Source of the DNA: Candidatus Omnitrophica bacterium UBA6233 | Lineage (GTDB): Bacteria > Omnitrophota > Gorgyraeia > Gygaellales > Profunditerraquicolaceae | Direction: 5' to 3' | Length of the DNA stretch: 64,000 nt | NCBI GenBank assembly: GCA_002440965.1 | Contig: DJWJ01000015.1 | Location: 34-64,033 of the forward strand | In this document: positions 12,667 through 62,124 of the stretch, piece after piece | Numbering within the stretch: the stretch's first letter is position 1 | Layout: each line of letters starts with the position of its first letter | The notes under the pieces: generated by a model | What the model was told of the DNA's origin: nothing | Database searches by the model: none | What the model saw: only the letters and a program-made list of their open reading frames with translations | Position numbers and translations under genes: made by a program

Positions 12667-12674
12667 AATTAGAA

Positions 12675-12719
12675 AGGGACGGTTCTATGCTAAATGGCTA
12701 TACGAATAGAACCGTCCCT
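12675..12719. repeat. GC-rich palindromic element, short form (AGGGACGGTTCTAT-N17-ATAGAACCGTCCCT)
   Basis: 14-bp perfect inverted repeat; the same termini recur at 26242, 37276 and 47651. Confidence 0.8.
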
Positions 12720-18684: not shown

Positions 18685-19144
18685 CAGGTCTATGGTCTAT
18701 AGTCGATAGCCTATAGTTTTAAATAATTACGAAAGCTATGGAGCATTTTTGAGAGTTCTTCGCACCTTTTATAATATACATCAAATTCAGATTGTTTGAT
18801 ATATTTTTGTTCCAAGCTTAGGTATAATAAGGTAACTACTTCATATAAAGAACCAATAGCTATTTGCAGGAATCTTGCGAGGTCTGTGTCTGAACGCCTG
18901 CCTTCTCCTTCGGCGATATTTAGGCTTATAGATACTGCTGCCCTATTTAGCTGGCTAATAATGCCGAATTTTTCGTCTTCAGGGAATTTTTTGGTTAGGC
19001 TATAGACTTCTTTAGCAAATTTTACTGATTCTTGCCAGATTTTTTAAGCTTTCAAATTTAAACGCCATTTTCGTTTATTTACCTTTGGCCATCGACTATT
19101 GACCTGGAGCTATCAGGATAATCATAGGCCTAAAGCTATCAGAG
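18685..19144 (-). mobile_element. IVS-like element: four-helix-bundle gene flanked by ~20-bp terminal inverted repeats (CAGGTC..TATAGTCGATAGCC / GGCCATCGACTATTGACCTG)
   Basis: Flanking IRs at 18685-18716 and 19087-19144; solo IR-pair copies without the gene at 21781-21893 and 23369-23472. Confidence 0.35.
18711..19068 (-). pseudogene. Four-helix-bundle protein gene (23S rRNA-intervening-sequence protein family) with a +1 frameshift in an A6 run
   Basis: Translation reads 'MAFKFESLK' then, after removing one A at 19040-19045, 'IWQESVKFAKEVYSLTKKFPEDEKFGIISQLNRAAVSISLNIAEGEGRRSDTDLARFLQIAIGSLYEV...' (119 aa). As sequenced, frame 1 stops after 19 codons. Confidence 0.55.
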
Positions 19145-19150
19145 TAATAA

Positions 19151-19190
19151 AAAAGCCCTCGGAGGTTTTTGCCCCCCAAGGGCTTTTTTA
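19151..19190. terminator. Bidirectional rho-independent terminator downstream of the porin gene
   Basis: AAGCCCTCGGAGG-ttttt-GCCCCCCAAGGGCTT hairpin flanked by A-run and T-run. Confidence 0.55.
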
Positions 19191-19205
19191 TTTACATCAG
19201 TTGTA

Positions 19206-20504
19206 TTAGAATGTTACCTTCATTGAGCCGATTACCTGTGAGGCGTTGCCACGGCTATCAGCTATAGCGTTTCCGCAAGCAAAATAACCCCAGGTAAGGC
19301 CTAACTGCACATCTTCGGTATAATCGTAGGTAGCCGTAAGATCAAATTCGTTGCCAAGATTCTTTTTAGTTGTAGTTGGAATTAATTCATTATTGTAGAG
19401 GCTATTATAACCAGATACTTCTTTCACGAGAGAGAAGTTGGTAACGCTACCAGTAAGGGTAACATCATCCGCAGGTTTTACGCTGCCTCTAACACCTATT
19501 GCCTGCATATTGCTGAAAGGCAATATCGCGTAAGCAATGTTTCCTAATACTTGGTTATAATACATTGGATCCCAGCCGCTATATTTACCGCCTTTAGGCC
19601 CGGAAAGATAAGTATAACCGGCTCCGATGGAAGGAGTAAATTTAACTTTGGAGAAGGTATAATCTGCCATAGCTTGCAGAGCATAGGCCTTGCGTTTATC
19701 CGAAGTATTGTTGCTACTAAGAACTCTATCCATACCAAATTGCCAGGCGCCTTCTAAGGATAGTTTTAAATCAGTGATTGGCTTGGCTGTGATTAAAGCG
19801 CCAAGAGTGTAAACATTATCTTTTTTACTGTTGTTGGCTTCTTCTGCTTTGCTCCTCTTATCCCAGATGTAACCTTGAACATTTAATTTCTTGCTTACAT
19901 CATAGGAAGCGTTTACGCCGAATAAATCCGCGTCATCGTCAGCATTGGTATTGCTATTCGAAATCTTTGCGTAAACCGCGTCAATAACTAGCGGGTCGTA
20001 ATTCAAAGTTGCCCTGATTGCGTCAAAAGCATTTCTCACACTTAAGTCAGCGGGAAATCCGTTCAAAGCATCTGAAGTATAATTATTGCTGTTACCTATG
20101 ATTAACTGGTTACCAAACCTTATTTCCTGGCGGCCTAAAGTAAGGCTTAAAGGTGAATAAAGGAATTCCTTCAAGGTAACATAAGCTAAGTCAAGGTCAA
20201 TATCGGTAGATGAATTGCTTTCAGTTGTCCAGCTTCTTTCATTGATTAATCTGACCGTTGCAATCACGTTATCGGTTAAATCCGCGTCAACTCTTAAGCG
20301 GGTCTGTGTGCCAAAAAGCCTGTTGCGCTCTTTGGTGTTTGTGCCAGTTCCAGGGTCAGGCGTACCCAAATCAAAATTATTTCTGGCTATTCCGTAGAGA
20401 GCGATGTCTCCGGAAACCTTCACATTCTGCACTTCGGCGTAAGCGGCAAAAGTCGTGCCGACCACAAATAGAAGCGCTAATACTAAAATCAAGCGTTTAC
20501 TCAT
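19206..20504 (-). CDS. Outer-membrane beta-barrel porin-like protein
   Basis: Signal peptide 'ALLFVVGTTFAAYA', alternating amphipathic strands, C-terminal 'MKVTF'; strong GGAGG RBS. Confidence 0.5.
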   Translation of the reverse strand: MSKRLILVLALLFVVGTTFAAYAEVQNVKVSGDIALYGIARNNFDLGTPDPGTGTNTKERNRLFGTQTRLRVDADLTDNVIATVRLINERSWTTESNSSTDIDLDLAYVTLKEFLYSPLSLTLGRQEIRFGNQLIIGNSNNYTSDALNGFPADLSVRNAFDAIRATLNYDPLVIDAVYAKISNSNTNADDDADLFGVNASYDVSKKLNVQGYIWDKRSKAEEANNSKKDNVYTLGALITAKPITDLKLSLEGAWQFGMDRVLSSNNTSDKRKAYALQAMADYTFSKVKFTPSIGAGYTYLSGPKGGKYSGWDPMYYNQVLGNIAYAILPFSNMQAIGVRGSVKPADDVTLTGSVTNFSLVKEVSGYNSLYNNELIPTTTKKNLGNEFDLTATYDYTEDVQLGLTWGYFACGNAIADSRGNASQVIGSMKVTF

Positions 20505-21780: not shown

Positions 21781-21893
21781 TGATAGCACAGGCCTAGTTT
21801 GTCCCGATACAACAGGCCTATAGTCTATAGTTTTTACTATTGACTATCGACTATTGACCTGAAGCTATTAGAGTTATAGCGACCTGCCATTTT
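21781..21893. repeat. Solo copy of the TATAGTC inverted-repeat element (IVS-like family)
   Basis: 'TGATAGCACAGG...CTATAGTCTATAGT..ACTATTGACTATCGACTATTGACCTGAAGCTATTAGAG'. Confidence 0.7.
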
Positions 21894-21907
21894 TCAAGAT
21901 ATATCAG

Positions 21908-21981
21908 TGCCCCTGGCAGGAATCGAACCTGCCACACGCAGTTTAGGAAACTGCTGCTCTATCCTTATGAGCTACAGGGGC
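21908..21981 (-). tRNA. tRNA-Arg (anticodon CCT)
   Basis: Cloverleaf readable on the - strand: acceptor GCCCCTG/CAGGGGC, D-arm GCTC-ATAAGGATA-GAGC, anticodon stem GCAGT/ACTGC with loop TTCCTAA, T-arm GCAGG-TTCGATT-CCTGC; no encoded CCA. Confidence 0.8.
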
Positions 21982-23351: not shown

Positions 23352-23368
23352 AATTTATCCCAATAGAT

Positions 23369-23472
23369 TTAGGTCTATATTTATCCTGATAGCGCAGGTC
23401 TATAGTCAATAGTTTATTTTTGTTATTGACTATAGACTATTGACCTGAAGCTATCAGAGCCATATTGACCTG
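23369..23472. repeat. Solo copy of the TATAGTC inverted-repeat element, exactly filling the sigma-factor/ppdK spacer
   Basis: 'GATAGCGCAGGTCTATAGTCAATAG...TTGACTATAGACTATTGACCTGAAGCTATCAGAG'. Confidence 0.7.
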
Positions 23473-26211
23473 TTATTTTTTCTTTCCCTTTAACACTGCT
23501 TGGGCTGCCGCAAGTTTTGCAATCGGAACTCTAAACGGCGAACAGCTTACGTAATTCATTCCTACCTTGTGGCAGAACTCGACTGACTTTGGCTCGCCGC
23601 CATGCTCGCCGCAAATTCCTACCTCAAGGTTTTTATTGGTTTTTCTGCCTCTTTCGATGCCGATCTTGATCAATTGGCCAATACCTTCCTGGTCAATGCT
23701 CTGGAACGGATCTTCCGGCAGTATGCCTTTTTTAATGTATTCCGGCACAAAACTTCCGATGTCATCACGGGAGAAACCAAATCCCATCTGGGTCAGATCA
23801 TTGGTTCCAAATGAGAAGAACTGCGCTACTGTTGCCAGTTTATCCGCGACTAAAGCCGCCCGCGGTATCTCGATCATCGTGCCAAACATATGCTTAATCG
23901 CTTTGAGATTGTATTTTTTCAAAACTTCCGCGTAAATTGCTTTGGCTATTACGAGCTGGTCGTCAAGTTCTTTAACATCGCAAACCACCGGGATCATTAT
24001 TTCCGGGTAAGGTTTTTTACCTTCTTTGATCAATTCAGCCGCTGCTTCAAATATGGCGCGGATCTGCATTGCGCTGATTTCCGGATAGGTCACACCTAGG
24101 CGCACACCGCGATGGCCCATCATGGGATTGGATTCATGCAAATTTTCAGCGCGTTTGGATAATTCTTCCATACTGATGTTCAGTTCCTTGGCAATCTCTT
24201 CCAATTTTGCCTGCTCGCGGGGAACAAACTCATGCAGAGGCGGGTCAAGCAAGCGGATAACTACTGGAAATCCGTCCATTGCCGCCAGCGTTCCTTTAAT
24301 ATCTTTTTTTACATACGGGAACAATTCTTCGGTAGCTTTCTTTCTTTCTTCCGTTGTTTTGGAAATGATCATTTTACGCAGGATAAATAACGGCTCATCC
24401 GCGCCTTTACCGTAGAACATATGCTCGGTTCTGAATAACCCTATTCCTTCGGCTCCGAATTGACGCGCTTTGGAAGCGTCTTCCGGAGTTTCAGCGTTGG
24501 TGCGGATACCGAGTTTTTTGATGGTGCCGCAGATCTTTAAGAAATCCATCAGCATTGTATTTTCTTCGGAAGCATCCATCATCGGAAGCTTGCCTTCGTA
24601 TACCGCGCCTTTGGTTCCGTTAAGAGTGATCCAATCGCCTTCTTTTAAGGTTTTGCCCCCTGCGCTGATTGTTTTGTTTTCGGAATCAACATGCAGGTCG
24701 CTTGCGCCTACGATACAGCATTTACCCCATCCGCGGGCAACTAAGGCTGCGTGGCTAGTCATTCCGCCGCGGGCAGTAAGGATTGCTTCAGCCGCGCGCA
24801 TACCTTCAACATCTTCAGGATTTGTCTCTTCGCGTAAAAGTATTACTTTTTTGCCCTGTTGTTTCCAGGCTACCGCGTCTTTAGCGTTAAAGACAATCTG
24901 TCCACACGCGCCTCCCGGGCCAGCAGGCAGACCTTTGACTAACGGTTTGCTCGTCGCTTCAACTTTAGGATCGATGATCGGGTGAAGCAATTCATCTAAT
25001 TGGCTGGGGGTAACGCGCATAACCGCTTCTTCTTTTTTAATCAGTTTTTCTTTGATCATATCCATACACATGCGTACTGCTGCCGGGCCATTACGTTTTC
25101 CTACGCGGCACTGCAACATAAAGAGTCTCCCCTTTTCAATGGTAAACTCGATATCCTGCATATCATGGTAATGATTTTCCAGGCGTTCCTGGATCGCGAA
25201 AAGTTCTTTGTAAATTGCGGGCATACCTTTTTCCAGTGTCAGTAAATCTTTGTTATGCGCTGACTGGGAAAATGTGTTGATTGGAGCTGGCGTTCTGATG
25301 CCGGCAACTACATCTTCGCCTTGAGCGTTGATTAAATACTCGCCGTAGAAATGAGGATCGCCGTTTCCGGGATTACGGGTAAAAGCCACACCGGTAGCTG
25401 AATCATTACCCATGTTTCCGAAAACCATGGTTTGCACGTTTACCGCTGTTCCCCATTCATCCGGTATGCCTTCGATTCGGCGATAGCTGATTGCGCGCTT
25501 GCCGTTCCAGGAAGAAAATACCGCGCTAATACCTCCCCATAATTGCTGCATTGGCTCGTCTGGAAATTCTTTGCCTAAAACTTCTTTGATCTTTATTTTA
25601 TATCTGGCGCAGATATCTTTCAGGTCGGAAAGAGTCAAATCCGTATCCGCCTTAGAACCCCTCTTCTGCTTTACTTCATCCATAATCCGTTCAAGCTGTT
25701 TACGGATACCCAGGTCATCCTTTGGTTCGATGCCGGCTGCTTTTTCCATAACTACGTCGGAGTACATTGTAATCAGCCTGCGGTAAGCATCATAAACAAA
25801 GCGTTCATTGCCGCCTGCTTGCTTGATCAAACCGGGGATTGTTTTTTCAGTTAACCCTACGTTTAAAACCGTCTCCATCATTCCAGGCATGGATTTTCTG
25901 GCTCCAGAACGCACCGAAACTAAAAGCGGATTCGTCGAATCGCCGAATTTTCTACCCATAAGTTTTTCAACGGTAGCCAGCGCTTTTTCAACCTGGGCTT
26001 TTAGTTCTTTGGGGTAAGATTTTTTATGTTCATAATAATAAGTGCAGACTTCCGTAGTGAGAGTAAATCCGGGAGGAACAGGAAGTTTTAAATTTTTATG
26101 GCCGGCCATTTCCGCTAGGTTCGCGCCTTTGCCGCCTAAAAGATTTTTCATACTTTCATTGCCATCTGCTTTGCCGCCGCCAAAACTGTAAACATACTTT
26201 TTGGTACTCAT
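23473..26211 (-). CDS. ppdK: Pyruvate, phosphate dikinase
   Basis: 'MSTKKYVYSFGGGKADGNESMKNLLGGKGANLAEM' canonical PPDK start; PEP-utilising and TIM-barrel domains throughout. The ORF-track N-terminal 26 aa read into the upstream palindrome and are not included. Confidence 0.9.
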   Translation of the reverse strand: MSTKKYVYSFGGGKADGNESMKNLLGGKGANLAEMAGHKNLKLPVPPGFTLTTEVCTYYYEHKKSYPKELKAQVEKALATVEKLMGRKFGDSTNPLLVSVRSGARKSMPGMMETVLNVGLTEKTIPGLIKQAGGNERFVYDAYRRLITMYSDVVMEKAAGIEPKDDLGIRKQLERIMDEVKQKRGSKADTDLTLSDLKDICARYKIKIKEVLGKEFPDEPMQQLWGGISAVFSSWNGKRAISYRRIEGIPDEWGTAVNVQTMVFGNMGNDSATGVAFTRNPGNGDPHFYGEYLINAQGEDVVAGIRTPAPINTFSQSAHNKDLLTLEKGMPAIYKELFAIQERLENHYHDMQDIEFTIEKGRLFMLQCRVGKRNGPAAVRMCMDMIKEKLIKKEEAVMRVTPSQLDELLHPIIDPKVEATSKPLVKGLPAGPGGACGQIVFNAKDAVAWKQQGKKVILLREETNPEDVEGMRAAEAILTARGGMTSHAALVARGWGKCCIVGASDLHVDSENKTISAGGKTLKEGDWITLNGTKGAVYEGKLPMMDASEENTMLMDFLKICGTIKKLGIRTNAETPEDASKARQFGAEGIGLFRTEHMFYGKGADEPLFILRKMIISKTTEERKKATEELFPYVKKDIKGTLAAMDGFPVVIRLLDPPLHEFVPREQAKLEEIAKELNISMEELSKRAENLHESNPMMGHRGVRLGVTYPEISAMQIRAIFEAAAELIKEGKKPYPEIMIPVVCDVKELDDQLVIAKAIYAEVLKKYNLKAIKHMFGTMIEIPRAALVADKLATVAQFFSFGTNDLTQMGFGFSRDDIGSFVPEYIKKGILPEDPFQSIDQEGIGQLIKIGIERGRKTNKNLEVGICGEHGGEPKSVEFCHKVGMNYVSCSPFRVPIAKLAAAQAVLKGKKK

Positions 26212-26241: not shown

Positions 26242-26316
26242 AGGGACGGTTCTCAAGCCAATCTTAAAGTGTCCCCCTAATGGGGACACTTTTGCCTTGA
26301 GTTGAGAACCGTCCCT
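26242..26316. repeat. GC-rich palindromic element, long form with nested hairpin (AGGGACGGTTCTCAA...GTGTCCCC-n5-GGGGACAC...TTGAGAACCGTCCCT)
   Basis: Same termini as 12675; near-identical copy at 37276-37350. Confidence 0.8.
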
Positions 26317-37275: not shown

Positions 37276-37350
37276 AGGGACGGTTCTCAACTCAAGGCAA
37301 AAGTGTCCCCTTAATAGGGACACTTTTAGCTTAGTTTGAGAACCGTCCCT
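37276..37350. repeat. GC-rich palindromic element, long form (copy of 26242-26316)
   Basis: AGGGACGGTTCTCAACTCAAGGC..GTGTCCCC-ttaat-AGGGACAC..GAGAACCGTCCCT. Confidence 0.8.
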
Positions 37351-39316: not shown

Positions 39317-39335
39317 AGTAATAATTATGTTAATG

Positions 39336-39485
39336 TAAAATGTCCAAATCCAAATGACAAATGAAATCCAAAATCCCAATGTTAAATATCAAAACAACAG
39401 TTTTGTTATTTGGAATTTGACATTTGCCTGCCTGCCGGACAGGCAGGGATTTATTTTGGATTTTGAGTTTTGTCATTTGTCATTA
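39336..39485. repeat. AT-rich imperfect-palindrome repeat (CAAAATCCAAA / AAATGACAAA word family) with central GC hairpin CCTGCCTG-ccgga-CAGGCAGG
   Basis: Arms 'tccaaatccaaatgacaaatgaaatccaaaatcc' and 'ggattttggattttgagttttgtcatttgtca'; related copies at 44628, 49391, 50669, 60939. Confidence 0.7.
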
Positions 39486-40713
39486 ATTCGTTTATAAGTT
39501 TTTCTGCTTTAACTTCTCTTTGTTCGCCGCTAATCATATCTTTTAGAGTAATAGTGCCTTTTTCAATTTCATTATCTCCGATAATCAGGACTATGTGCGC
39601 TCCTAAATCATTTGCTTTGCGCATAGCCCCTTTTAAAGATTTGTCTTCGTAATTAGTATCGCAGGCGACTCCGTTTTTACGCAATTCATTCAATATCCCC
39701 AATCCTTCTAATTTTGCGGGTTCGCCCAAAGTTATCAAATAAACCGGGTTTTCTCTTTGAGTTTTGGCATTTTCCCTTTGGGCCAGCATTAATCTTTCTA
39801 CGCCGAAGGCAAAACCGATAGCGCCAACCTGCGGACCACCCAGCTCTTTAGTCAAATTGTTATACCGTCCTCCTGCGCCAATAGCGTCTTGAGCGCCTAA
39901 GCTTTTTTGCGATATTTCAAAGACTGTTCCTGTGTAATAATCCAGTCCTCTGACAAGATGCGGGTTGATTTCATAAGCTATTCTTAAGAAATCCAACCCG
40001 TTTTTAACTTTATTAAAATGCTCTTTACAGTCTTGGCAAAGATAACTTTCAGAAATATTTATTTCGGAAACAATTCTCTTACACGTATCGTTTTTGCAAT
40101 CCAAAATTCGTAAAGGATTGTTCTCGAATCTGGTTGTGCATTCGGGGCAAAGGTTTTCCAATTTTTCCGCAAGGCTCGTTTTCAGTATTTCTACCAGTTT
40201 CTTTTTATCAGACTCGCAACCAAGGCTATTAATTCTTATTTTATAGTTTTCTATAGAGAAATTGCGTAATAGATTATCGGCTAAAGAGATAATCTCGACG
40301 TCAAGGTTAGCGTCCTGAGAACCGATTGCTTCGCAGCCTATATGGTGAAATTGCCGCAATCTGCCTTTTTGAGGCCGTTCCAGCCTGAACATCGGTCCAA
40401 TGTAGTATAATTTTACAAAACCGCTTGTTTTATCGAGATTATTTTCGATATAGGCGCGCACGATTGAGGCAGTCCCTTCCGGCCTAAGCGCGTAGGTTTC
40501 ATCTTTATTGTTTATGAGAAACATCTGTTTTTGGACGATTTCAGCGGTTTCGCCTAAAGAACGGTTGAATAATGCTGCTTCTTCGATTAAAGGAGGACGA
40601 ATCTCTTTGAAATTATACAGAGAAAAAGTATTGCGGCTGATTTCTTCCAGGTGTTGCCAGATGGATATTTCTTCCGGCAGGATATCCTTTGTTCCAGATA
40701 CTCTTTTAAACAT
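39451..40713 (-). CDS. hisS: Histidine--tRNA ligase
   Basis: 'MFKRVSGTKDILPEE...' class II HisRS motifs and anticodon-binding domain. The final ~10 codons ('MTNDKTQNPK') lie within the AT-rich repeat. Confidence 0.9.
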   Translation of the reverse strand: MFKRVSGTKDILPEEISIWQHLEEISRNTFSLYNFKEIRPPLIEEAALFNRSLGETAEIVQKQMFLINNKDETYALRPEGTASIVRAYIENNLDKTSGFVKLYYIGPMFRLERPQKGRLRQFHHIGCEAIGSQDANLDVEIISLADNLLRNFSIENYKIRINSLGCESDKKKLVEILKTSLAEKLENLCPECTTRFENNPLRILDCKNDTCKRIVSEINISESYLCQDCKEHFNKVKNGLDFLRIAYEINPHLVRGLDYYTGTVFEISQKSLGAQDAIGAGGRYNNLTKELGGPQVGAIGFAFGVERLMLAQRENAKTQRENPVYLITLGEPAKLEGLGILNELRKNGVACDTNYEDKSLKGAMRKANDLGAHIVLIIGDNEIEKGTITLKDMISGEQREVKAEKLINELMTNDKTQNPK

Positions 40714-44100: not shown

Positions 44101-44617
44101 TATCTTTTTCAAAAATATTCCTGTAGGTATCAGCTAATTTTAACGCGTCATTAACACGTTTTTGCTGGATCAGTGAGGGGATCTCTCCTTTTAAACAAGC
44201 AGAGAGGCCGATCAAGCCTTTAGAGTATTGGCTAAGGATTTCTTTATCGATTCTTGGACGGTAATAAAAACCTTCCAGGTAAGCCGAGGAAACCAGTTTC
44301 ATTAAGTTGCGGTAACCGGTTTCATCGCGGGCTAAAAGTATTAAATGGTAGGCCGCGTCTTCAATGCCGCGGGATTCTTTATCAAGCCGGCTCTTTGGCG
44401 CGATATAAGCTTCGCAACCGATAATCGGTTTTATGCCGTGCTTTAAGGCTTCCAGGTAAAAATCAATCGCTCCGAACATATTACCATGATCGGTAATAGC
44501 CAGAGAATCCATATTGTATTGTTTAGCCAGGGTCAGTAATTCGGGTATGCGGCAGGCGCCGTCAAGAAGGCTGAATTGCGTGTGTAAATGTAGGTGGACG
44601 AAATCGGAACGAGGCAT
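41183..44617 (-). CDS. dnaE: DNA polymerase III alpha subunit
   Basis: PHP start 'MPRSDFVHLHLHTQFSLLDG'; polymerase and OB domains follow. The first 9 ORF-track codons are repeat-encoded. Confidence 0.9.
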   Translation of the reverse strand: MPRSDFVHLHLHTQFSLLDGACRIPELLTLAKQYNMDSLAITDHGNMFGAIDFYLEALKHGIKPIIGCEAYIAPKSRLDKESRGIEDAAYHLILLARDETGYRNLMKLVSSAYLEGFYYRPRIDKEILSQYSKGLIGLSACLKGEIPSLIQQKRVNDALKLADTYRNIFEKDNFYLEIQENSIPDQKIVNEGLIKISKELNLPLVATNDVHYLTRDRAASHEALLCIQTQTTLDDPNRMRFQTDEFYFKSPQEMKTLFKETPEAISNTCEIASRCNLELDFKKVHLPKYEAPVGKTKEEYLKELCEKGLKEKYENVSKEINDRLEYELKIIQNMGFVSYFLIVWDFIHYAKSKGIPVGPGRGSAAGSLVSYLLGITDLDPLKYGLLFERFLNPERMGLPDIDIDFCYERRQEVIEYVTQKYGQENVAQIITFGTMQARGVVRDVGRVMGMSYADVDRIAKLIPPELDMTLKKALESEPELNNLYKNDPEVTKLITTGLVLEGLNRHASVHAAGVVIADKPLDNYSPLFKTTDDQITTGFSMGILEKIGLLKVDFLGLRTLTVIDQAVKIIKETRNIGLQIQKLPLDDKNTYKLLASAHTMGVFQVESSGMRDLLKKLEPERFEDLIALLALYRPGPIGSGMLNDFMKRKHNLIPIKYEHPKLQPVLKETYGIMVYQEQIMQIASLLGGFSLAQADILRKAMGKKIPEVMEKQRSNFIHGCVKNGIKESTATKIFDLIEYFSGYGFNKSHSTAYALISYRTAYLKANYPVEFMTALLTSERDNTDKIVEYVAEAERMGMAVLPPDINESDALFKVVDRESIRFGMLAIKNVGVGAVESIVEARKSGRFASLEDLCQKIDLRLANRKVLESLIKCGALDSFKMARAKMFASLDSILEAASRSQKEKAKGQLSFFDQGLTSNGFKKITNEMPQIHEWPESQLLAFEKDMLGFYVSGHPLARYARQLKRFISSSINDLHQHKNEDEIKVVGLISKVKHTMTRAKQEKMAILKLEDLDGSVELLVFPRAFQKVSRYIQPNSVVMVKGILNLKEDTPKIIVDDLFPFDEIYKLITAMSINLSGLKENVFDTLKGLLAASRGNIPIYLNLDTPAKSRVQLVVGEGFYVSPSEKLIKDIEELLGEKRLSLTL

Positions 44618-44627
44618 ATTCAAAATC

Positions 44628-44750
44628 CAAATTCCAAAGCACAAAATTCAAAATAAATTCAAATATTAAATGACAAAACTCCAATTTTGGTATTCATTAT
44701 TAGAATTTTGAATTTATCTTGAGTTTGGATTTTGTCATTTGGTATTTATG
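44628..44750. repeat. AT-rich imperfect-palindrome repeat (copy 2)
   Basis: 'CAAAATCCAAATTCCAAAGCACAAAATTCAAAATAAATTCAAAT...TTTGAATTTATCTTGAGTTTGGATTTTGTCATTTGG'. Confidence 0.7.
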
Positions 44751-44768
44751 TCTGATTTTCAAAATACT

Positions 44769-47467: not shown

Positions 47468-47650
47468 TTTAGATTTCTCCTCAATTTCCTCCTCGTCTTG
47501 GTGTTGGAAATTAACCCTAGTAGAACGAGAAATTGTTGAAACTTGTTATTTATCAGTAAGTTACGATATTTTAACTCATTTTTGGTGAGTTTTTTACGAA
47601 AGGATAGAAAATTTTACACCTCTAAGCTCAATTTGTCAAGAGAAAATTAA

Positions 47651-47695
47651 AGGGACGGTTCTAGGCTAAATAGCTCTTAGAATAGAACCGTCCCT
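47651..47695. repeat. GC-rich palindromic element, short form (AGGGACGGTTCTAG-N17-ATAGAACCGTCCCT)
   Basis: Near-identical to 12675-12719, including the loop 'gctaaatRgct'. Confidence 0.8.
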
Positions 47696-49390: not shown

Positions 49391-49515
49391 GAAATCCAAA
49401 TGTCCAAGCTCAAAATCCAAAATAAATTTAAATGACAAATACCCAATGACAAAACTTGTGTTTTGATATTTGAGTTTTAGATTTATTTTGAGCTTTGAAT
49501 TTTATCATTTGTCAT
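49391..49515. repeat. AT-rich imperfect-palindrome repeat (copy 3), filling the groES-groEL spacer
   Basis: 'GAAATCCAAATGTCCAAGCTCAAAATCCAAAATAAATTTAAATGACAAAT...TTTGAGTTTTAGATTTATTTTGAGCTTTGAATTTTATCATTTGTCATT'. Confidence 0.7.
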
Positions 49516-49523
49516 TACATTGC

Positions 49524-49814
49524 TTACTTGATAATAGCCAATATGTCTTCTTCGCGCATAATTAATAACTCTTCGCCTTCTTTAGTGGTAATTTCATTAC
49601 CGGAATATTTTCCGTACAAAACTTTATCTCCTACTTTAACTTCCGGAGCTTGCGTAGTTCCGTTATCCAGAACTTTGCCTTTTCCTATGGCAACCACTTT
49701 ACCCTCTTGAGGCTTCTCTTTTGCTGTATCCGGCAGAACTATTCCACCTTTAGTCTTAGCTTCAGCCTCTAAAGCCTTAACTACGATGCGGTCCCCTAAT
49801 GGTTTGATTTCCAT
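49524..49814 (-). CDS. groS: Co-chaperonin GroES
   Basis: '[11 protein letters not shown]...[22 protein letters not shown]'. Confidence 0.9.
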
Positions 49815-50659: not shown

Positions 50660-50668
50660 ATTATTTAA

Positions 50669-50800
50669 TGTCAAATTACAAAATTCAAATGACAAATGAA
50701 ATCCAAAATCCCAATGACAAATACCAAAACAAAAATTTTATTATTTAGAATTTGACATTTGGATTTATTTTGGATTTTGTGCTTTGACATTTGTCATTTC
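50669..50800. repeat. AT-rich imperfect-palindrome repeat (copy 4)
   Basis: 'CAAAATTCAAATGACAAATGAAATCCAAAATCCCAATGACAAATACC...TTTGGATTTATTTTGGATTTTGTGCTTTGACATTTGTCATTTC'; overlaps the last ~12 codons of uvrB. Confidence 0.7.
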
Positions 50801-52756
50801 TGTTAATTCTTTAACCTTGTCTCTTAATACCGCGGCTTTTTCAAACTGCAGGTTTCTCGCCGCAAGTTCCATTTCATATTCTAACTCGGAAATATATTTA
50901 CGCAACTCAAATTCATCTTTAGCTTCGCCGGTAAGGTTAACCACGAACTCTTCAGCCTCGGCTAAATCCTCGATTCCTTCTTTGATAGCTTTTTCGATTG
51001 AACGCGGGTTGATGTTGTTGCTTTTGTTAAATTCTAGTTGTATTTTTCTACGGCGGTTGCTTTCATCAATTGCCTTTTTCATTGAGCCGGTAATCGTATC
51101 AGCGTACATAATTACTTTACCATGGATATTACGGGCTGCTCTTCCGGAAACCTGGATCAAACTGGTTGCTGAGCGCAGAAAACCTTCTTTATCGGCATCT
51201 AGAATTGCGACCAGAGAAACTTCCGGCAGATCCAAGCCTTCCCTTAACAGGTTTATTCCGACGAGGCAGTCGAATTTTTTCTTTCTTAGATCTCTAAGAA
51301 TAGTTGAACGTTCGATGGTTTGGATCTCCGAATGCAGGTATTTTACTTTTAAGCTTTTTTCTTCCAGATAGACAGTCAAATCTTCGGCAGTGCGTTTAGT
51401 AAGAGTAGTAACAAGGACGCGTTCATTAAGTTTAGCCCGCTCTTTTACTTCTTTGATCAAATCATCCATTTGATTTTCAGATGGGCGGATAACGATTTCA
51501 GGGTCAATTAATCCGGTTGGCCGGATGATCTGCTGGATCAGTTTGTTATCGCTTTTCTTCATCTCATATTCATTGGGTGTGGCTGAAACAAAAACAACCT
51601 GTTTTATCAGTTTATTGAATTCTTCGAACTTTAAAGGCCGGTTATCCAGGCAGGAAGGCAGGCGGAAACCATATTTTACCAGAGTTTCTTTTCGGGCTTT
51701 ATCTCCTTCATACATTCCCCGGATTTGCGGTATGGTTACGTGTGATTCGTCGATAATAGTAAGGAATTTGTCCGGAAAATAATCGATTAAAGCATAAGGC
51801 CTTGAGCCGTCAGGCCTTCCTGATAGATGGCGTGAGTAATTTTCAATCCCGTGGCAATAACCGATTTCTTTCAGCATTTCCAAGTCGTATTTTGTCCGGG
51901 ATTCCAGTCTTTGGGCCTCCAGCAATTTATTCTGGGATCTTAAAACTTTTAGCTGTTCTTCCAGTTCTTCTTTTATAGAGGTAAGGCTGGTATTAATTTT
52001 ATCCTGAGAAATAATAAAATGTTTTGCCGGGTAGATCGCGATTTTTTCCAGTTGATCGATGATTTTGCCTGAAACCGGGTTAAACTCGGATATTTTTTCT
52101 ATTTTGTCGCCATTAAGCTCCAGGCGCACTGCTTTTTCCTGATAAGACGGAAAAATTTCCAGGGTGTCTCCTCTTACTCTTAATTTGCCCCGGACAAATT
52201 CATAATCATTTCTTTCGTATTGAACCTGGATAAATTTGGTGATTAATTCGTCACGGCTGATCTCTTTGCCTACTTCCAGCAAAACCAGCATATTATTGTA
52301 GCTTTGGGGATCTCCAAGGTTATAAATACAGGAGACCGAGGCTACAATAATGACGTCATTGCGGCTCATTAAGGAAGTGGTTGCGGAAAGGCGCAGCCGG
52401 TCAAGCCTGTCGTTGATCGCGGAATCTTTTTCAATATAGGTATCGGTTGAAGGAATATAAGCTTCAGGCTGGTAATAATCGTAGTAGCTTACAAAGTATT
52501 CTACGGCATTATGGGGGAAAAATTCTTTGAATTCGGAATATAATTGTGCCGCTAATGTTTTATTATGCGAAATAACCAGTGTGGGCAGGTTTACTTTGGC
52601 TATTGTGTTAGCTAGAGTGAAAGTCTTTCCTGAACCAGTTACGCCTAGCAGAGTATTAAACTGCCTGCCGGAAAGGATATCCTTAGTTAAGGCGTTTATT
52701 GCTTCCGGCTGGTCGCCGCAAGGATCGAATTTCGCAACAAGCTTAAAACCGGACAA
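50765..52756 (-). CDS. uvrB: Excinuclease ABC subunit B
   Basis: 'FKLVAKFDPCGDQPEAINAL', helicase motifs and UVR domain 'ELAARNLQFEKAAVLRDK'. The C-terminal tail 'MTNVKAQNPK' is repeat-encoded. Confidence 0.9.
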   Translation of the reverse strand: MSGFKLVAKFDPCGDQPEAINALTKDILSGRQFNTLLGVTGSGKTFTLANTIAKVNLPTLVISHNKTLAAQLYSEFKEFFPHNAVEYFVSYYDYYQPEAYIPSTDTYIEKDSAINDRLDRLRLSATTSLMSRNDVIIVASVSCIYNLGDPQSYNNMLVLLEVGKEISRDELITKFIQVQYERNDYEFVRGKLRVRGDTLEIFPSYQEKAVRLELNGDKIEKISEFNPVSGKIIDQLEKIAIYPAKHFIISQDKINTSLTSIKEELEEQLKVLRSQNKLLEAQRLESRTKYDLEMLKEIGYCHGIENYSRHLSGRPDGSRPYALIDYFPDKFLTIIDESHVTIPQIRGMYEGDKARKETLVKYGFRLPSCLDNRPLKFEEFNKLIKQVVFVSATPNEYEMKKSDNKLIQQIIRPTGLIDPEIVIRPSENQMDDLIKEVKERAKLNERVLVTTLTKRTAEDLTVYLEEKSLKVKYLHSEIQTIERSTILRDLRKKKFDCLVGINLLREGLDLPEVSLVAILDADKEGFLRSATSLIQVSGRAARNIHGKVIMYADTITGSMKKAIDESNRRRKIQLEFNKSNNINPRSIEKAIKEGIEDLAEAEEFVVNLTGEAKDEFELRKYISELEYEMELAARNLQFEKAAVLRDKVKELTEMTNVKAQNPK

Positions 52757-60298: not shown

Positions 60299-60951
60299 AT
60301 TTTTTCCCCAAGTAAATCAATCAGAGATTTTACCATCTTTTCCTTTGATGAAATCCGGCCGCTGTTTTTTTCTTTACTGACTAAATATGCGGCATACCGT
60401 CTATTTTTCGAGGTATTGGCTACGACCAGGTCAAGACTGGAATTTTTAAGCAAAGAACGTCCTTTATTTACTAATTTATTTCCTGATAAATCCGGTTCAA
60501 ACTTAAATCCGACTAGGAATGAACCAAGCGCAGCCTTACGCAAACTAGCTATAATTTTAGGTGTGCGCTTAAAAGCCAATTCCAAAATATTTTTGTCAGA
60601 GTTAATCTTGGTTTTGCTTACCTTAATTGGCCGGTAATCCGAAATAGCCGCAGCCTGAATTATCGCGTCATATTTCTTTTTAAGCGCGTTTTTTACTAAT
60701 GAATTTAATTCGTCAAAGAACTTAAAATTTACGACTTTAATTTTCTTGTTTAAAGAATAAGCGCCAATCGGGCCAAGTAATAATGTTATTTTCGCGCCTC
60801 TTTTGGTTAAGTCTTCAGCCAACAAGATCCCGGTTTTACCGGTTGAAGTATTGCTAATTACTCTTACATTGTCTATCGGAACCCAAGTAGGCCCGGCAGT
60901 GATTAAGATTTTTTTATTTTTAAGCATATTTACTTTAATGTCAAATGACAA
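60295..60951 (-). CDS. coaB: Phosphopantothenate--cysteine ligase (monofunctional CoaB domain only)
   Basis: 'KKILITAGPTWVPIDNVRVISNTSTGKTG' CoaB signature; only 218 aa with no CoaC half. Confidence 0.8.
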   Translation of the reverse strand: MSFDIKVNMLKNKKILITAGPTWVPIDNVRVISNTSTGKTGILLAEDLTKRGAKITLLLGPIGAYSLNKKIKVVNFKFFDELNSLVKNALKKKYDAIIQAAAISDYRPIKVSKTKINSDKNILELAFKRTPKIIASLRKAALGSFLVGFKFEPDLSGNKLVNKGRSLLKNSSLDLVVANTSKNRRYAAYLVSKEKNSGRISSKEKMVKSLIDLLGEKI

Positions 60952-61058
60952 AGCACAAAATTCAAAATAAATTTAAATGTCAAAATAAAAATGAAAAAAC
61001 ATCTGTTTTGAAATTTGAGCTTTAGATTTATTTTGTGCTTTGAATTTTGTCATTTGAA
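60939..61058. repeat. AT-rich imperfect-palindrome repeat (copy 5)
   Basis: 'GTCAAATGACAAAGCACAAAATTCAAAATAAATTTAAATGTCAAAAT...TTTGAGCTTTAGATTTATTTTGTGCTTTGAATTTTGTCATTTG'. Confidence 0.7.
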
Positions 61059-61062
61059 TTTA

Positions 61063-62124
61063 TCAGTACCCAATCTCTTTAAGAATAGATTTCATCTCAG
61101 GTTTGATAACCTTAGGCGCTTTTACGCTTTTTATCGCTCTGTCAGGGTCTTTTAATCCATGGCCGGTCAAAATACAGACTATTTTTTTCGAAGATTGCTC
61201 TTTGAAATATCCGTTTTTATGAAGTTTAAGTAAACCTGCCACTGATGATGCGCTGGCAGGTTCCGCGAATACGCCGTCATTAAGCGCGAGTATCTTGTAA
61301 GCTTCTAAAATTTGATCGTCTGAAACTATATCGATTAAACCGCCGGATTCATCTCGGGCGTTTTCCGCCTGCTTCCAACTAGCCGGATTTCCAATGCGAA
61401 TGGCAGTTGCGATTGTTTCAGGTTTTTTTATCGGATGGCCCAGAACTATAGGCGCTGCTCCTTCTGCCTGAAAACCTAACATCTTCGGCAATTTTTTGGA
61501 TAGGCCAGCCTCTTTATATTCTTTATATCCTTTCCAGTAAGCCGTGATATTTCCGGCATTTCCTACCGGCATAATCTGAAAATCCGGAGCATCATCCAAA
61601 AAATCACAGATTTCAAAGCTTCCTGTTTTTTGGCCTTCGATACGGTAAGGATTAAGCGAATTTACAAGCGTAACCGGATATTTAACAGTAATTTCGCGCG
61701 CCAAGCCTAAAGCATCGTCAAAATTTCCATCTATTGCCAGCACTTGTGCTCCATGAATCAAAGCTTGGCTTAACTTGCCTAAGGCAATTGCTCCACTGGG
61801 AATAAGGACAATACATTTTATTCCGGCGCGGGCAGCGTAAGCAGCCGCAGAAGCTGAGGTATTTCCTGTGGATGCGCACATTACGGCTTTTGCTCCTTCT
61901 TCACAGGCTTTAGAGATAGCCAGCGTCATCCCCCTGTCTTTAAAGGAGCCTGTAGGATTAAGCCCTTCATATTTTAGATAAACTTCGAAATCGTCTCCTA
62001 AAAGTCGGCTCAAATATTTGGAGTAAATTAAAGGGGTATTCCCTTCGTTTAAAGTAATTACCGGAGTTTTATCCGTTACCGGCAGGTATTTTTTATATTT
62101 ATCGATTAACCCCAGGTATTTCAC
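61063..62124 (-). CDS. thrC: Threonine synthase
   Basis: PLP site '[10 protein letters not shown]'; 353 aa. Confidence 0.9.

What the first reader, a model, noticed from the sequence alone, without database searches (positions are those of the whole stretch)
18685..19144. Frameshifted four-helix-bundle (23S-rRNA-IVS protein family) gene flanked by inverted repeats, with solo copies of the inverted-repeat pair elsewhere
On the - strand between 19068 and 18711 lies a clear member of the four-helix-bundle family. That family is named for the ORFs carried inside 23S rRNA intervening sequences. The protein reads '...WQESVKFAKEVYSLTKKFPEDEKFGIISQLNRAAVSISLNIAEGEGRRSDTD...', but the frame is broken by one extra A in an A6 run at 19040-19045, which is why it is missing from the ORF track. 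The gene is bracketed by terminal inverted repeats (CAGGTC..TATAGTCGATAGCC versus GGCCATCGACTATTGACCTG). The same IR pair, collapsed to ~100 bp without the gene, recurs at 21781-21893 and 23369-23472, each exactly filling an intergenic spacer. This looks like an IVS-type stem-loop element that has spread in protein-coding DNA rather than rRNA, in gene-carrying and miniature (MITE-like) forms.
Basis: seen in the sequence. Interest (0 to 1): 0.7.

Follow-up and report, generated by a model that had tools for sequence, protein, structure and literature searches.

The report
Hairpin-bracketed four-helix-bundle gene cassette, decaying
A small, frameshifted "23S-rRNA-intervening-sequence protein" gene sits inside a long hairpin built from 7-base repeats between two ordinary genes of an Omnitrophota bacterium; the same gene-in-a-heptamer-hairpin layout recurs in this protein family in every phylum sampled, which ties two old puzzles (IVS proteins and bacterial heptanucleotide repeats) together.

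Summary
On the minus strand, 19068-18711 encodes a PF05635/TIGR02436 four-helix-bundle (4HB) protein. It is broken by one extra A (A6, 19045-19040). The same A6 is in a second, independently assembled strain, and intact homologues read A5. Inverted arms (19144-19087 and 18713-18685) close the ORF in a stem. ORF-less copies of the same arms form hairpins at 21781-21893 and 23369-23472, in spacers that are empty in relatives.

The organism is a Candidatus Omnitrophota MAG. At the same porin|GH57 spacer, other Omnitrophota are empty, carry intact 4HB genes of three unrelated subfamilies, or hold an internally deleted remnant.

The arms are inverted arrays of tandem 7-nt units. This layout is general. 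35 of 62 metagenomic 4HB genes have significant bracketing repeats, against 5 of 59 control genes. Cyanobacterial, Riemerella and Xanthomonas copies show it too, and the published Coxiella 23S IVS has heptamers upstream of its ORF.

Best reading: a decaying copy of an IVS-type, operon-embedded hairpin cassette, plus two miniature forms. How it moves and what the protein does remain inferred. I found no paper linking 4HB genes to heptamer arrays. The RNA-versus-DNA level is unresolved, and RNase III cleavage is untested.

The parts
19146..19192 (-). Intrinsic-terminator-like hairpin plus T-run of the upstream porin gene (19206-20504). It marks the upstream edge of the insertion site and is present at empty sites too.
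   Evidence: Inverted repeat I1, 20 nt, 90% complementary. The same stop/hairpin/T-run arrangement is seen in all empty orthologous spacers.
19087..19144 (-). Upstream (5') arm of the cassette. It holds two CTGATAGC..AGGYC sub-repeats followed by TCAATAG/TCGATGG heptamers.
   Evidence: (D1, I2). It pairs with the 3' arm in the minimum-energy and centroid folds.
19069..19086 (-). Short leader (AAAGGTAAATAAACGAAA) between the arm and the ATG. It leaves room for a ribosome-binding site only. I saw no promoter-like site in it.
   Evidence: Promoter-like sites in the region are not above chance (11 found against 11.1 expected). In 35 other bracketed copies the arm ends a median of 20 nt before the start codon.
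18711..19068 (-). Four-helix-bundle (PF05635/TIGR02436) ORF. It is inactivated, or N-terminally truncated, by a +1 frameshift.
   Evidence: NCBI calls it as a 109-aa product starting at ATC.
19040..19045 (-). A6 run carrying the one-base insertion. Intact homologues read A5 here (CTAAAAATTTGG in L033).
   Evidence: All of the 119 closest relatives other than the window's own product cover at least 81% of the repaired protein, most of them 97-100%, with lengths of about 118 aa.
18685..18713 (-). Downstream (3') arm, CTATAG GCTATCGA CTATAGA CCATAGA CCTG. It starts within the stop codon and ends 16 nt before the GH57 start codon (18669).
21781..21893 (-). ORF-less hairpin with the same arm family, between tRNA-Arg(CCT) (21907-21981) and the PHP-domain gene (start 21755).
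   Evidence: (D4, D7). This spacer holds only the tRNA in L006, L007, L011, L021 and L022.
23369..23472 (-). ORF-less hairpin with the same arm family. It fills the spacer between PPDK (stop 23473) and the sigma-70 gene (start 23351).
   Evidence: (-42 kcal/mol, z -8.2). The spacer is 42 nt in L004, 15 nt in L006 and 5 nt in L034.

Best explanation
WHAT IT IS (shown). This is a roughly 460-bp cassette. It lies after the terminator hairpin of a porin gene and directly before the start codon of a GH57 gene, in a conserved, co-directional gene array of a Candidatus Omnitrophota genome. Its parts, in order, are a G-rich arm, an 18-nt leader, a PF05635 four-helix-bundle ORF and a C-rich arm. The two arms are inverted arrays of degenerate 7-nt units. 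The copy in the window is decaying. It has a real +1 frameshift. A related lineage (L004) keeps only an internally deleted remnant, and the closest species (L003) has lost it. The two hairpins about 100 nt long, at 21781-21893 and 23369-23472, are ORF-less members of the same arm family.

HOW IT WORKS (inferred). No promoter-like signal above chance or transposase was found, so the cassette probably rides on read-through transcription of the host operon. In that transcript the arms pair and enclose the ORF in a long stem. This is the architecture of 23S rRNA intervening sequences, where RNase III cuts such a stem. Cutting here would detach the 4HB message from the flanking cistrons.

The cassette persists vertically because the protein is under purifying selection. 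It moves between related genomes by homologous recombination through the conserved flanks. It reaches new spacers by an unknown route. It is lost by frameshift, then internal deletion, leaving a solo hairpin or nothing.

The same layout holds for this protein family in Omnitrophota, Cyanobacteria, Bacteroidota, Xanthomonas and in the Coxiella IVS. So the heptamer arms are an integral, co-evolving part of the unit, not an accident of this locus.
For: Identity and frameshift:
- Family scores.
- The same A6 is found in a second assembly. That assembly has a divergent porin allele (61-91% nt identity) but is otherwise 100% identical.
- Intact A5 homologues.

Stem:
-.

Solo copies:
-. Their spacers are empty in relatives.

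Orthologous porin|GH57 site:
- Most Omnitrophota have a 64-90 nt spacer with no cassette.
- L033, L028, L017, L030 and L083 are filled with type-A genes.
- L020 and L039 are filled with genes only about 35% identical to type A, while GH57 stays at 57-68%.
- Filled taxa are scattered on the GH57 tree, with empty sisters.
- L004 holds a remnant about 95% identical in DNA, against about 78% in the adjacent GH57 coding sequence and 53% aa in the porin.

Purifying selection:
- Four-fold degenerate sites are saturated in both 4HB and GH57, yet 4HB proteins remain 64-85% identical.

Operon embedding:
- Neighbours are co-directional in 59 of 63 cases upstream and 47 of 60 downstream, with median gaps of 52 and 44 nt.
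- Examples are accB|accC, cas10|cmr3 and cas6|cas4.

Family-wide bracketing:
- About 15 of 19 Omnitrophota-set copies are bracketed.
- 35 of 62 metagenomic copies are bracketed, against 5 of 59 control genes.
- Own-arm complementarity has a median score of 26, against 14 for cross pairs (p 5e-33).
- Period 7 dominates: 45 arrays, against 13 at period 8 and 4 or fewer at other periods.
- 26 of 75 arrays lie within 150 nt of 4HB genes, which cover 0.6% of the sequence.
- In Xanthomonas, a 30-nt arm pair of GGGAATC arrays is 87% complementary.

Literature:
- The Coxiella IVS has a 28-bp terminal stem, RNase III cleavage within it, tandem GACAGAT heptamers upstream of the ORF, and a decaying ORF (PMC4990558).
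Against: - There is no expression or cleavage data. RNase III processing is extrapolated from rRNA IVSs.
- Arm mismatches show no excess of G.U-compatible changes on the sense strand (63 against 80). Selection for an RNA stem, as opposed to DNA-level symmetry or protein-binding sites, is therefore not demonstrated.
- Synonymous sites are saturated, so type-A copies at this site could be ancient and vertically inherited with many losses rather than mobile.
- I noticed no target-site duplications (not searched systematically), and the mechanism for reaching new sites is unknown.
- Many heptamer hairpins exist without any 4HB gene nearby (49 of 75 arrays). Many of them have unit sequences unlike any local 4HB arm. 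Solo hairpins may therefore arise independently of the cassette.
- The 23-mer arm motif was not found in 185,579 representative genomes, so genome-wide copy number in the source organism is unknown.
Confidence: 0.6

Rival explanations
1. A cognate-protein system, analogous in form to RAYT/REPIN. The 4HB pentamer specifically binds the 7-nt repeat arrays that flank its own gene, and the same arrays elsewhere in the genome. Each paralogue has its own unit. The gene plus its arrays form a self-recognising module that regulates, maintains or spreads the arrays. The hairpin is secondary.
For: - Periodicity is conserved at 7 nt, while the unit sequence differs in nearly every copy and co-varies between the two arms.
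- Paralogues in one gene cluster each have their own unit type, and nearby solo arrays match them (L089).
- Solo hairpins in the window, L017 and L046 share the units of the local 4HB gene.
- In Xanthomonas the 4HB gene is bracketed by GGGAATC, the genome's dominant heptamer repeat. That repeat occupies 117 intergenic regions in X. campestris and forms 70 convergent inverted pairs (PMC4692102).
- Arrays have a median of 4 units, and both solved homologues are deposited as five chains.
- The protein is under purifying selection.
- The relative Avd is a nucleic-acid-binding pentamer (from established knowledge of DGRs; the weak bAvd/Avd hits are).
- Arms are polar relative to the interior in 45 of 48 cases.
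Against: - No binding data exist.
- The protein has no recognisable catalytic or DNA-binding motif beyond the conserved Q..S...NIAEG...E core.
- Co-variation of gene and arms is equally expected from simple common descent of a cassette.
- Many solo arrays have units unlike any 4HB arm seen in the same locus (L020, L033).
- The window copy is a pseudogene, yet its solo hairpins remain intact.
Confidence: 0.3
2. Host hairpins first. Heptamer-repeat hairpins are ordinary, fast-evolving intergenic elements (transcript stabilisers, attenuators or slippage products) that many of these genomes carry anyway. 4HB genes are merely found in or near them, because such spacers tolerate insertions or because the gene targets hairpin loops. 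On this view the two solo copies were never cassettes.
For: - 49 of 75 heptamer arrays are not near a 4HB gene.
- The PPDK|sigma spacer carries solo heptamer hairpins with different units in L020, L022, L027, L033 and L046, with no 4HB gene at that site in any locus.
- The window has a second, A/T-rich heptamer-hairpin family with no 4HB gene.
- Published work describes heptamer arrays without reference to 4HB genes (PMC4679880, PMC4692102).
Against: - Arrays are about 59 times enriched per base next to 4HB genes, which is still several-fold if only non-coding DNA is counted.
- Control genes in the same contigs are rarely bracketed (5 of 59 against 35 of 62).
- Arms abut the ORF tightly and consistently: a median of 20 nt before the start codon and 9 nt after the stop.
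- Arm type follows the 4HB subfamily even within one genome.
- L004 shows a cassette being reduced by internal deletion.
Confidence: 0.2
3. The gene is intact or still expressed. Either A6 is a homopolymer sequencing error, or the product is made by a programmed +1 frameshift at A_AAA_A or from the ATC codon that NCBI used as the start.
For: - The 110 codons after the shift contain no stop codon.
- A +1 slip of tRNA-Lys on AAA-A would restore exactly the family N-terminus, MAFKFESLKIWQ.
- NCBI annotates a 109-aa product starting at ATC.
Against: - A6 is identical in two separately assembled strains that differ in the porin gene.
- Homologues are in frame with A5 at this position, so the shift is not a conserved recoding site.
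- The codon after the slip site (AAT) is not a stop codon, so there is no evident stall signal of the kind that drives the classic prfB shift.
- The lineage shows other loss stages: a deleted remnant in L004 and absence in L003. L030 carries an independent frameshift.
Confidence: 0.08

Closest known systems
23S rRNA intervening sequences (IVS) carrying an S23p/PF05635 ORF (Leptospira, Coxiella burnetii)
   Same: - The same protein family.
- The ORF is enclosed by terminal inverted repeats that form a long stem.
- Tandem heptamers lie next to the ORF (GACAGAT in Coxiella, with copy number varying between strains).
- The ORF is prone to decay by deletions and substitutions.
- The phylogenetic distribution is sporadic (PMC4990558).
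   Different: - The element here lies between protein-coding genes, in an operon spacer after a terminator hairpin, not in a 23S rRNA helix.
- Its arms are multi-unit heptamer arrays.
- ORF-less copies sit in neighbouring mRNA spacers.
- RNase III cleavage has not been tested.
Bacterial heptanucleotide repeat arrays (cyanobacterial STRR; GGGAATC of Xanthomonas and GGGGAYT of Nostoc; TAACTGA of Beggiatoaceae, Cyanobacteria and Bacteroidetes)
   Same: - Tandem 7-nt units, about 2-6 and up to dozens per array.
- Intergenic, mostly between co-directional genes.
- Often in convergent inverted pairs.
- Lineage-specific unit sequences.
- Function unknown (PMC4692102, PMC4679880; STRR from memory of Mazel et al. 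1990).
   Different: - Neither of the two papers checked (PMC4692102, PMC4679880) mentions 4HB, S23 or IVS proteins.
- Here the arrays bracket a PF05635 gene.
- In Xanthomonas the bracketing unit is the genome's own GGGAATC repeat.
RAYT/REPIN systems (REP-associated tyrosine transposase genes flanked by inverted REP pairs)
   Same: - A gene flanked by inverted copies of a short repeat that also occurs without the gene in other intergenic spacers of the same genome.
- Each gene variant has its own repeat type.
   Different: - The gene here encodes a small four-helix bundle with no HUH/Y1 transposase motifs.
- The repeats are tandem 7-nt arrays, not single REP palindromes.
- There is no evidence of catalysis or trans-mobilisation.
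MITEs
   Same: - Short, non-coding elements with inverted ends, found in intergenic spacers.
- Related to a longer gene-carrying form.
   Different: - I noticed no target-site duplication (not searched systematically).
- No transposase is encoded in the longer form.
- Only three copies were seen, all within 5 kb, and they are 64-84% identical.
- The arms are degenerate tandem repeats.
Avd, the accessory variability determinant of diversity-generating retroelements
   Same: A distantly related four-helix-bundle pentamer fold (weak hits to PF22296 and NF033474).
   Different: - The scores are far below the Avd cut-offs (21.7 against 40 and 80 bits).
- No reverse transcriptase is encoded next to the gene. 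TR/VR repeats were not searched for.

Membership tests
PF05635 / TIGR02436 four-helix-bundle protein (23S rRNA IVS protein) | Profile score above the curated cut-off over the whole domain | tested here: met
   134.3 bits against 33.8 (PF05635, residues 6-110 of 118). 127.3 bits against 24 (TIGR02436). PDB homologue 2GSC matches at E 3.6e-19.
PF05635 / TIGR02436 four-helix-bundle protein (23S rRNA IVS protein) | Intact open reading frame of about 118 aa | tested here: not met
   A +1 frameshift lies at the A6 run 19045-19040. It is shared by two assemblies. Close homologues are about 118 aa and in frame.
23S rRNA intervening sequence (IVS) | Inserted in a helix of the 23S rRNA gene | tested here: not met
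   Flanked by a porin gene and a GH57 gene. The only Rfam family reaching its gathering score anywhere in the window is tRNA, so no rRNA gene was detected.
23S rRNA intervening sequence (IVS) | Terminal inverted repeats form a stem that encloses the ORF | tested here: met
23S rRNA intervening sequence (IVS) | Excised from the transcript by RNase III | not testable with these tools
MITE | Terminal inverted repeats | tested here: met
MITE | Target-site duplication flanking each copy | tested here: inconclusive
   I noticed no direct repeat at the element ends when reading the sequences. No systematic search was made. The spacers of relatives have diverged too far for a base-exact comparison with an empty site.
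MITE | A related autonomous element encoding a transposase | tested here: not met
   The long form encodes only the 4HB protein. The neighbouring genes are housekeeping genes.
RAYT/REPIN | The flanked gene encodes an HUH/Y1 (IS200/IS605-like) transposase | tested here: not met
   The only Pfam hits are PF05635 and a weak bAvd hit.
Heptanucleotide tandem-repeat arrays (STRR-like) | Tandem units of 7 nt in intergenic DNA | tested here: met
   - Lag-7 arrays: 45, against 13 at lag 8 and 4 or fewer at other lags, in 1.32 Mb.
- The flanks of nearly all 4HB genes have period 7 as the best period.
- In the window copy the periodicity is weak (best lag 7 with 14-16 of 28 matches). It is clearer in solo 2 (21831-21858) and in the orthologue L033.
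DGR accessory protein Avd | NF033474 or PF22296 score above the cut-off, and an adjacent reverse transcriptase with TR/VR | tested here: not met
   21.7 bits against cut-offs of 80 and 40. No RT is encoded among the neighbouring genes. TR/VR repeats were not searched for.
Programmed +1 frameshift site | Shift site conserved among homologues | tested here: not met
   Homologues read A5 and are in frame. The other frameshifted copy, L030, is broken at a different place.
Intrinsic terminator (for the solo hairpins) | GC-rich short stem followed by a T-run | tested here: not met
   The terminator scan lists neither solo. Their stems are long and AT-rich, and no U-run follows them.

The most novel reading that the evidence does not exclude
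PF05635 four-helix-bundle pentamers are the missing cognate proteins of bacterial heptanucleotide repeat arrays (STRR, GGGAATC, TAACTGA and others). One subunit would read one 7-nt unit. Each paralogue would co-evolve with the unit that brackets its own gene and that is scattered as solo arrays or hairpins through the genome's operon spacers. rRNA IVSs would be the special case in which such a module landed in an rRNA helix. This would make gene plus arrays a new kind of self-recognising repeat system, RAYT/REPIN-like in logic but with a non-enzymatic nucleic-acid-binding protein.
Probability: 0.25. Interest if true: 0.85.

Novelty: new variant of a known kind. Interest (0 to 1): 0.66.

Why it matters
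Two puzzles have stood for more than thirty years.
- What are the 23S rRNA intervening sequences and their conserved ORF for?
- Why do Cyanobacteria, Xanthomonas, Bacteroidetes, Beggiatoaceae and others carry hundreds of intergenic heptanucleotide repeat arrays?

This locus and its relatives show that the two go together. The IVS-protein gene is typically embedded between inverted heptamer arrays, inside operons as essential as accBC. The arms co-vary, and there are ORF-less derivatives.

That turns both puzzles into direct experiments in cultivable organisms:
- Does the pentamer bind its arrays?
- Does RNase III cut the stem?
- What happens to flanking-gene expression and array stability when the gene is deleted?

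It also matters for annotation. These cassettes split operons, explain the spurious 'association' of PF05635 with CRISPR-Cas loci, and are easily mis-called when frameshifted.

Tried and rejected
- An exact scan of 185,579 representative genomes for the 23-mer arm motif found nothing. The source species is not represented there, so genome-wide copy number could not be obtained.
- RNA duplex energies of the flanks gave noisy z-scores and no sense/antisense difference. I replaced them with local alignment against shuffles.
- A sense-strand G.U excess in arm mismatches would have shown RNA-level selection. It was not found (63 against 80, p 0.18). One anecdotal case (L089:9847, AAUUAUG:CGUAAUU) had suggested it.
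- Lower synonymous divergence of 4HB than of GH57 would have shown recent horizontal transfer of type-A genes. Both are saturated.
- Promoter-like and terminator-like scans were at chance level.
- Rfam at gathering and permissive thresholds found no family for the hairpins.
- An alignment of 15 diverse 4HB proteins was too divergent for the metagenome locus search. A 6-sequence alignment was used instead, so that sample is biased towards one branch of the family.
- I suspected a group I intron in the tRNA-Arg region of L004 and L008. Rfam did not support this.
- The upstream-arm G-richness first looked like a coding-strand feature. Because the arms are inverted repeats, it holds on both strands and says only that the arms are oriented relative to the interior.
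Full report
OBSERVATION

On the minus strand, ATG 19068-19066 opens a frame that reads MAFKFESLKN..., then stops after 18 codons. The frame shifted by one base continues KIWQESVKFAKEVY...NYLKL to a TAG at 18713-18711. Removing one A from the A6 run at 19045-19040 gives a 118-aa protein. That protein scores 134.3 bits on PF05635 (cut-off 33.8) and 127.3 bits on TIGR02436 (cut-off 24). It hits the DGR Avd models only weakly. It is the only such gene in the window.

The ORF is bracketed by inverted repeats. The core arms are 18694-18711 and 19087-19104, 18 nt and 89% complementary. They close the ORF in both the minimum-energy and the centroid fold of the 473-nt transcript. The upstream arm extends to 19144 with two CTGATAGC..AGGYC sub-repeats.

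Two ORF-less hairpins, at 21781-21893 and 23369-23472, share these arms.
- The 19-mer ATTGACCTGRAGCTATCAG occurs 4 times against 0.01 expected, always on the + strand.
- The left arms of the three copies align closely over about 35 nt.
- The solo in the 23360-23480 stretch folds at -42 kcal/mol, z -8.2.

IS THE FRAMESHIFT REAL?

The flanking GH57 protein is found on two NCBI MAG contigs, in GCA_041649345.1 and GCA_041653915.1. Both carry the identical 551-nt element with A6. The two contigs are not copies of one assembly. Their porin genes are only 61-91% identical in DNA, while the other 12 kb are 100% identical.

The 119 closest database relatives other than the window's own product are about 118 aa long, and nearly all span the repaired N-terminus. 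The orthologue in L033 reads CTA AAA ATT TGG, that is A5. NCBI rescued the window gene by starting it at ATC.

I conclude that this is a genuine one-base insertion in an A5 run. It is not a conserved recoding site.

ORGANISM AND ORTHOLOGOUS SITE

GH57 relatives place the window in Candidatus Omnitrophota. The gene order PPDK - sigma-70 - PRT - tRNA-Arg - PHP - hyp - porin - GH57 is conserved across about 50 species-level genomes.

The porin|GH57 spacer shows every state.
- Empty: most genomes have 64-90 nt, made of stop codon, terminator hairpin, T-run, about 10-25 nt, then ATG.
- Intact type-A cassettes: L033, L028, L017 and L083.
- Another frameshifted copy: L030.
- Different subfamilies: L020 and L039 carry 4HB genes only 31-42% identical to type A and to each other, with quite different arm units (GTCACAAA-like and GTACGGNG-like), while GH57 stays at 57-68%.
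- A remnant: L004 (80% GH57 identity) keeps an internally deleted remnant made of the last roughly 35 codons plus the arm ends.
- Lost: the closest species, L003 (94%), has no cassette, only a CTACTAN x4 array.

Filled taxa are scattered over the GH57 tree, next to empty sisters.

Four-fold degenerate sites are saturated in both genes, yet type-A proteins remain 64-85% identical. So the gene is old and under purifying selection where it is kept.

The L004 remnant, the right arm and the first roughly 65 nt of GH57 are about 95% identical to the window. The rest of GH57 is about 78% identical, and the porin is 53% identical in protein. This indicates a recent recombinational exchange of this short segment between lineages.

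The two solo hairpins occupy spacers that are 5-42 nt (PPDK|sigma), or hold only the tRNA (PRT|PHP), in related genomes.

THE ARMS ARE HEPTAMER ARRAYS, AND THIS IS A FAMILY RULE

In L033 the arms read TCTATAG TCGATAG TCAATAG TCTATAG and CTATCGA CTATAGA CCATAGA CTATAGA. The window's arms are a more degenerate version of these.

Close homologues also occur as 3-4 co-directional copies inside polysaccharide gene clusters. Each is flanked by inverted arrays of a different 7-nt unit, such as CAACAGT, GGCTAAT, AATTATG/CGTAATT and GTATTGA/GCAATAC.

The counts across the loci I fetched are as follows.
- Of 19 non-redundant copies, about 15 have bracketing repeats that beat 199-200 of 200 shuffles. Period 7 is the best period in almost all flanks.
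- In 1.32 Mb of fetched loci there are 45 period-7 arrays, against 13 of period 8 and 4 or fewer of any other period from 4 to 12.
- 26 of 75 arrays lie within 150 nt of a 4HB gene, although those flanks cover only 0.6% of the bases. 18 of 26 genes have one. The loci were partly chosen for containing 4HB genes, and arrays are confined to non-coding DNA, so the true enrichment is several-fold rather than 59-fold.

Outside Omnitrophota the pattern holds as well.
- tblastn against plasmids found mostly cyanobacterial copies. They are inserted between co-directional genes, for example cas10|cmr3 and cas6|cas4.
- Five of the six plasmid copies inspected are flanked by heptamer arrays. The arrays are inverted in Riemerella and Picosynechococcus, and direct in Pseudanabaena, with 14 and 10 units.
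- In an unselected sample of 62 metagenomic copies, 35 have bracketing repeats unmatched by 100 shuffles. Only 5 of 59 other genes on the same contigs do.
- The units are all different (GGGTCAG, GGTAACA, TAGGGTG, GTTACGA and so on). The arms end a median of 20 nt before the start codon and begin 9 nt after the stop.
- Each gene's two arms match each other far better than the arms of other genes: median score 26 against 14, p 5e-33.
- Neighbouring genes are co-directional in 59 of 63 cases upstream and 47 of 60 downstream.
- In Xanthomonas the homologue of the crystallised XCC0516 lies between accB and accC. It is bracketed by GGGAATCGGGAGTGGAGAATCGGGAATCGG and CCCATTCCCCATTCTCGACTCCCTATTCCC, 30 nt and 87% complementary.

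LITERATURE

Warrier et al. (PMC4990558) characterised the Coxiella 23S IVS. It has a 28-bp terminal stem, RNase III cuts within the stem, and three tandem GACAGAT heptamers of strain-variable number lie just upstream of the S23p ORF. The ORF is decaying.

Rehm et al. (PMC4692102) describe GGGAATC heptamer arrays in 117 intergenic regions of X. campestris. These include 70 convergent inverted pairs, mostly between co-directional genes. They also describe GGGGAYT arrays in Nostoc.

MacGregor (PMC4679880) describes TAACTGA arrays in Beggiatoaceae, Cyanobacteria and Bacteroidetes, and lists candidate binding proteins (S1, Csp, CsrA).

Neither of the two heptamer-repeat papers mentions 4HB, S23 or IVS proteins. 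Searches for PF05635, TIGR02436, 'S23 ribosomal protein' and related terms returned no paper whose listed title or abstract start connects the gene family with heptamer arrays outside the Coxiella IVS. The library is incomplete, so prior description elsewhere cannot be excluded.

HOW IT MOST LIKELY WORKS

Shown:
- The cassette's parts and their order.
- Its embedding in co-directional arrays.
- Co-variation of its arms.
- Its presence/absence and decay series.
- Purifying selection on the protein.

Inferred:
- No promoter-like signal above chance was found, so it is probably transcribed by read-through from the host operon.
- The arms pair in that RNA.
- By analogy with rRNA IVSs, the stem is an RNase III substrate that separates the 4HB message from its neighbours.
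- Spread among relatives is by homologous recombination through the conserved flanks.
- The route to new sites is unknown.

A second, non-exclusive model is that the pentameric protein binds the 7-nt units, and that gene plus arrays form a RAYT/REPIN-like module. The points in its favour are these.
- The 7-nt period is conserved while the units diverge.
- Arm types are specific to each paralogue, and nearby solos match them.
- The Xanthomonas gene is bracketed by the genome's own dominant repeat.
- Arrays have a median of 4 units, and both solved homologues are deposited as five chains.
- The arms are polar. The G-rich strand reads towards the interior in 45 of 48 cassettes and in 14 of 19 solos.

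Against any purely RNA-level reading, arm mismatches show no sense-strand G.U excess.

A third model is that heptamer hairpins are autonomous host features, and the gene merely lodges in them. It is favoured by the many solo arrays with unrelated units. It is disfavoured by the enrichment, the tight junctions and the control genes.

VERDICT

The finding is real and correctly read as an IVS-type element outside rRNA. The copy in the window is a pseudogene at one stage of a loss series.

The MITE label and RNase III processing are unproven.

The wider result is more interesting than the locus itself. PF05635 genes in every phylum sampled are bracketed by co-varying heptamer arrays, including the dominant heptamer repeat of Xanthomonas. 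As far as the searchable literature shows, this has not been described.

Noticed in passing
window 39330-39494, 44614-44756, 49397-49526, 50665-50808, 60935-61071: A second family of long intergenic hairpins, built from A/T-rich 7-nt units (ATGACAA, AATCCAA and similar). No 4HB gene is nearby. Five copies lie in the second half of the window.
   Followed up: partly
window 12673-12719, 26242-26316, 37276-37350, 47649-47695; also L007 and L019, PPDK|sigma spacer: A GC-rich nested hairpin family, AGGGACGGTTCTC...GTGTCCCC..GGGGACAC...GAGAACCGTCCCT. The two full-length copies fold at -51 and -54 kcal/mol, z about -10. It is conserved in sequence across Omnitrophota species and sits in spacers that hold heptamer hairpins in other species. 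It looks REP-like or MITE-like and matches no Rfam family.
   Followed up: partly
window 39431-39451; L004 and L008 near tRNA-Arg; L018 PPDK|sigma spacer: A 20-nt GC mini-palindrome, CCTGCCTG(Y)CCGGCAGGCAGG, nested inside other elements and inside a duplicated tRNA-Arg 5' segment in related genomes.
   Followed up: no
window 19206-20504 (porin, Alginate_exp family): The porin gene is hypervariable. It is 53% identical in protein to L004 while neighbouring genes are 80-92% identical. Between two strains that are otherwise 100% identical over 12 kb it is only 61-91% identical in DNA. This suggests diversifying selection or allele replacement by recombination.
   Followed up: partly
L181 1930-2372 (Xanthomonas campestris); L184 (X. 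citri): The 4HB gene homologous to the crystallised XCC0516 splits the accB-accC operon. accC starts directly after the C-rich arm, with no obvious Shine-Dalgarno sequence. In X. citri the 4HB ORF overlaps the accC start.
   Followed up: partly
L100 1486-1842 (Picosynechococcus plasmid); L098 1492-1851 (Pseudanabaena plasmid): 4HB cassettes are inserted between cas10 and cmr3 and between cas6 and cas4. This probably explains why PF05635 is reported as 'CRISPR-associated' in surveys.
   Followed up: partly
L017, L020, L039: 40-70 nt upstream of the 4HB start codon: A conserved motif, GTTAGATTTGCC...CGTCTATTG, lies between the upstream arm and the ORF in three otherwise divergent cassettes. It may be an internal promoter or an RNA element. 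It is absent from the window copy.
   Followed up: no
L079 9604-9948 (Latescibacterota) and L068 6984-7394 (Syntrophorhabdus): 4HB genes adjoin GH57 genes in other phyla too. In L079 the gene is directly upstream of GH57, as in Omnitrophota, and has AGGANTC heptamer arms. Whether this is coincidence, a shared hot spot or a functional link is open.
   Followed up: no
L004 6181-6675, L008, L009 (PRT|PHP spacer): A 280-550 nt insertion next to tRNA-Arg(CCT) contains a duplicated 5' part of the tRNA. Rfam finds one intact tRNA and no intron family. It may be the scar of an integrated element.
   Followed up: partly
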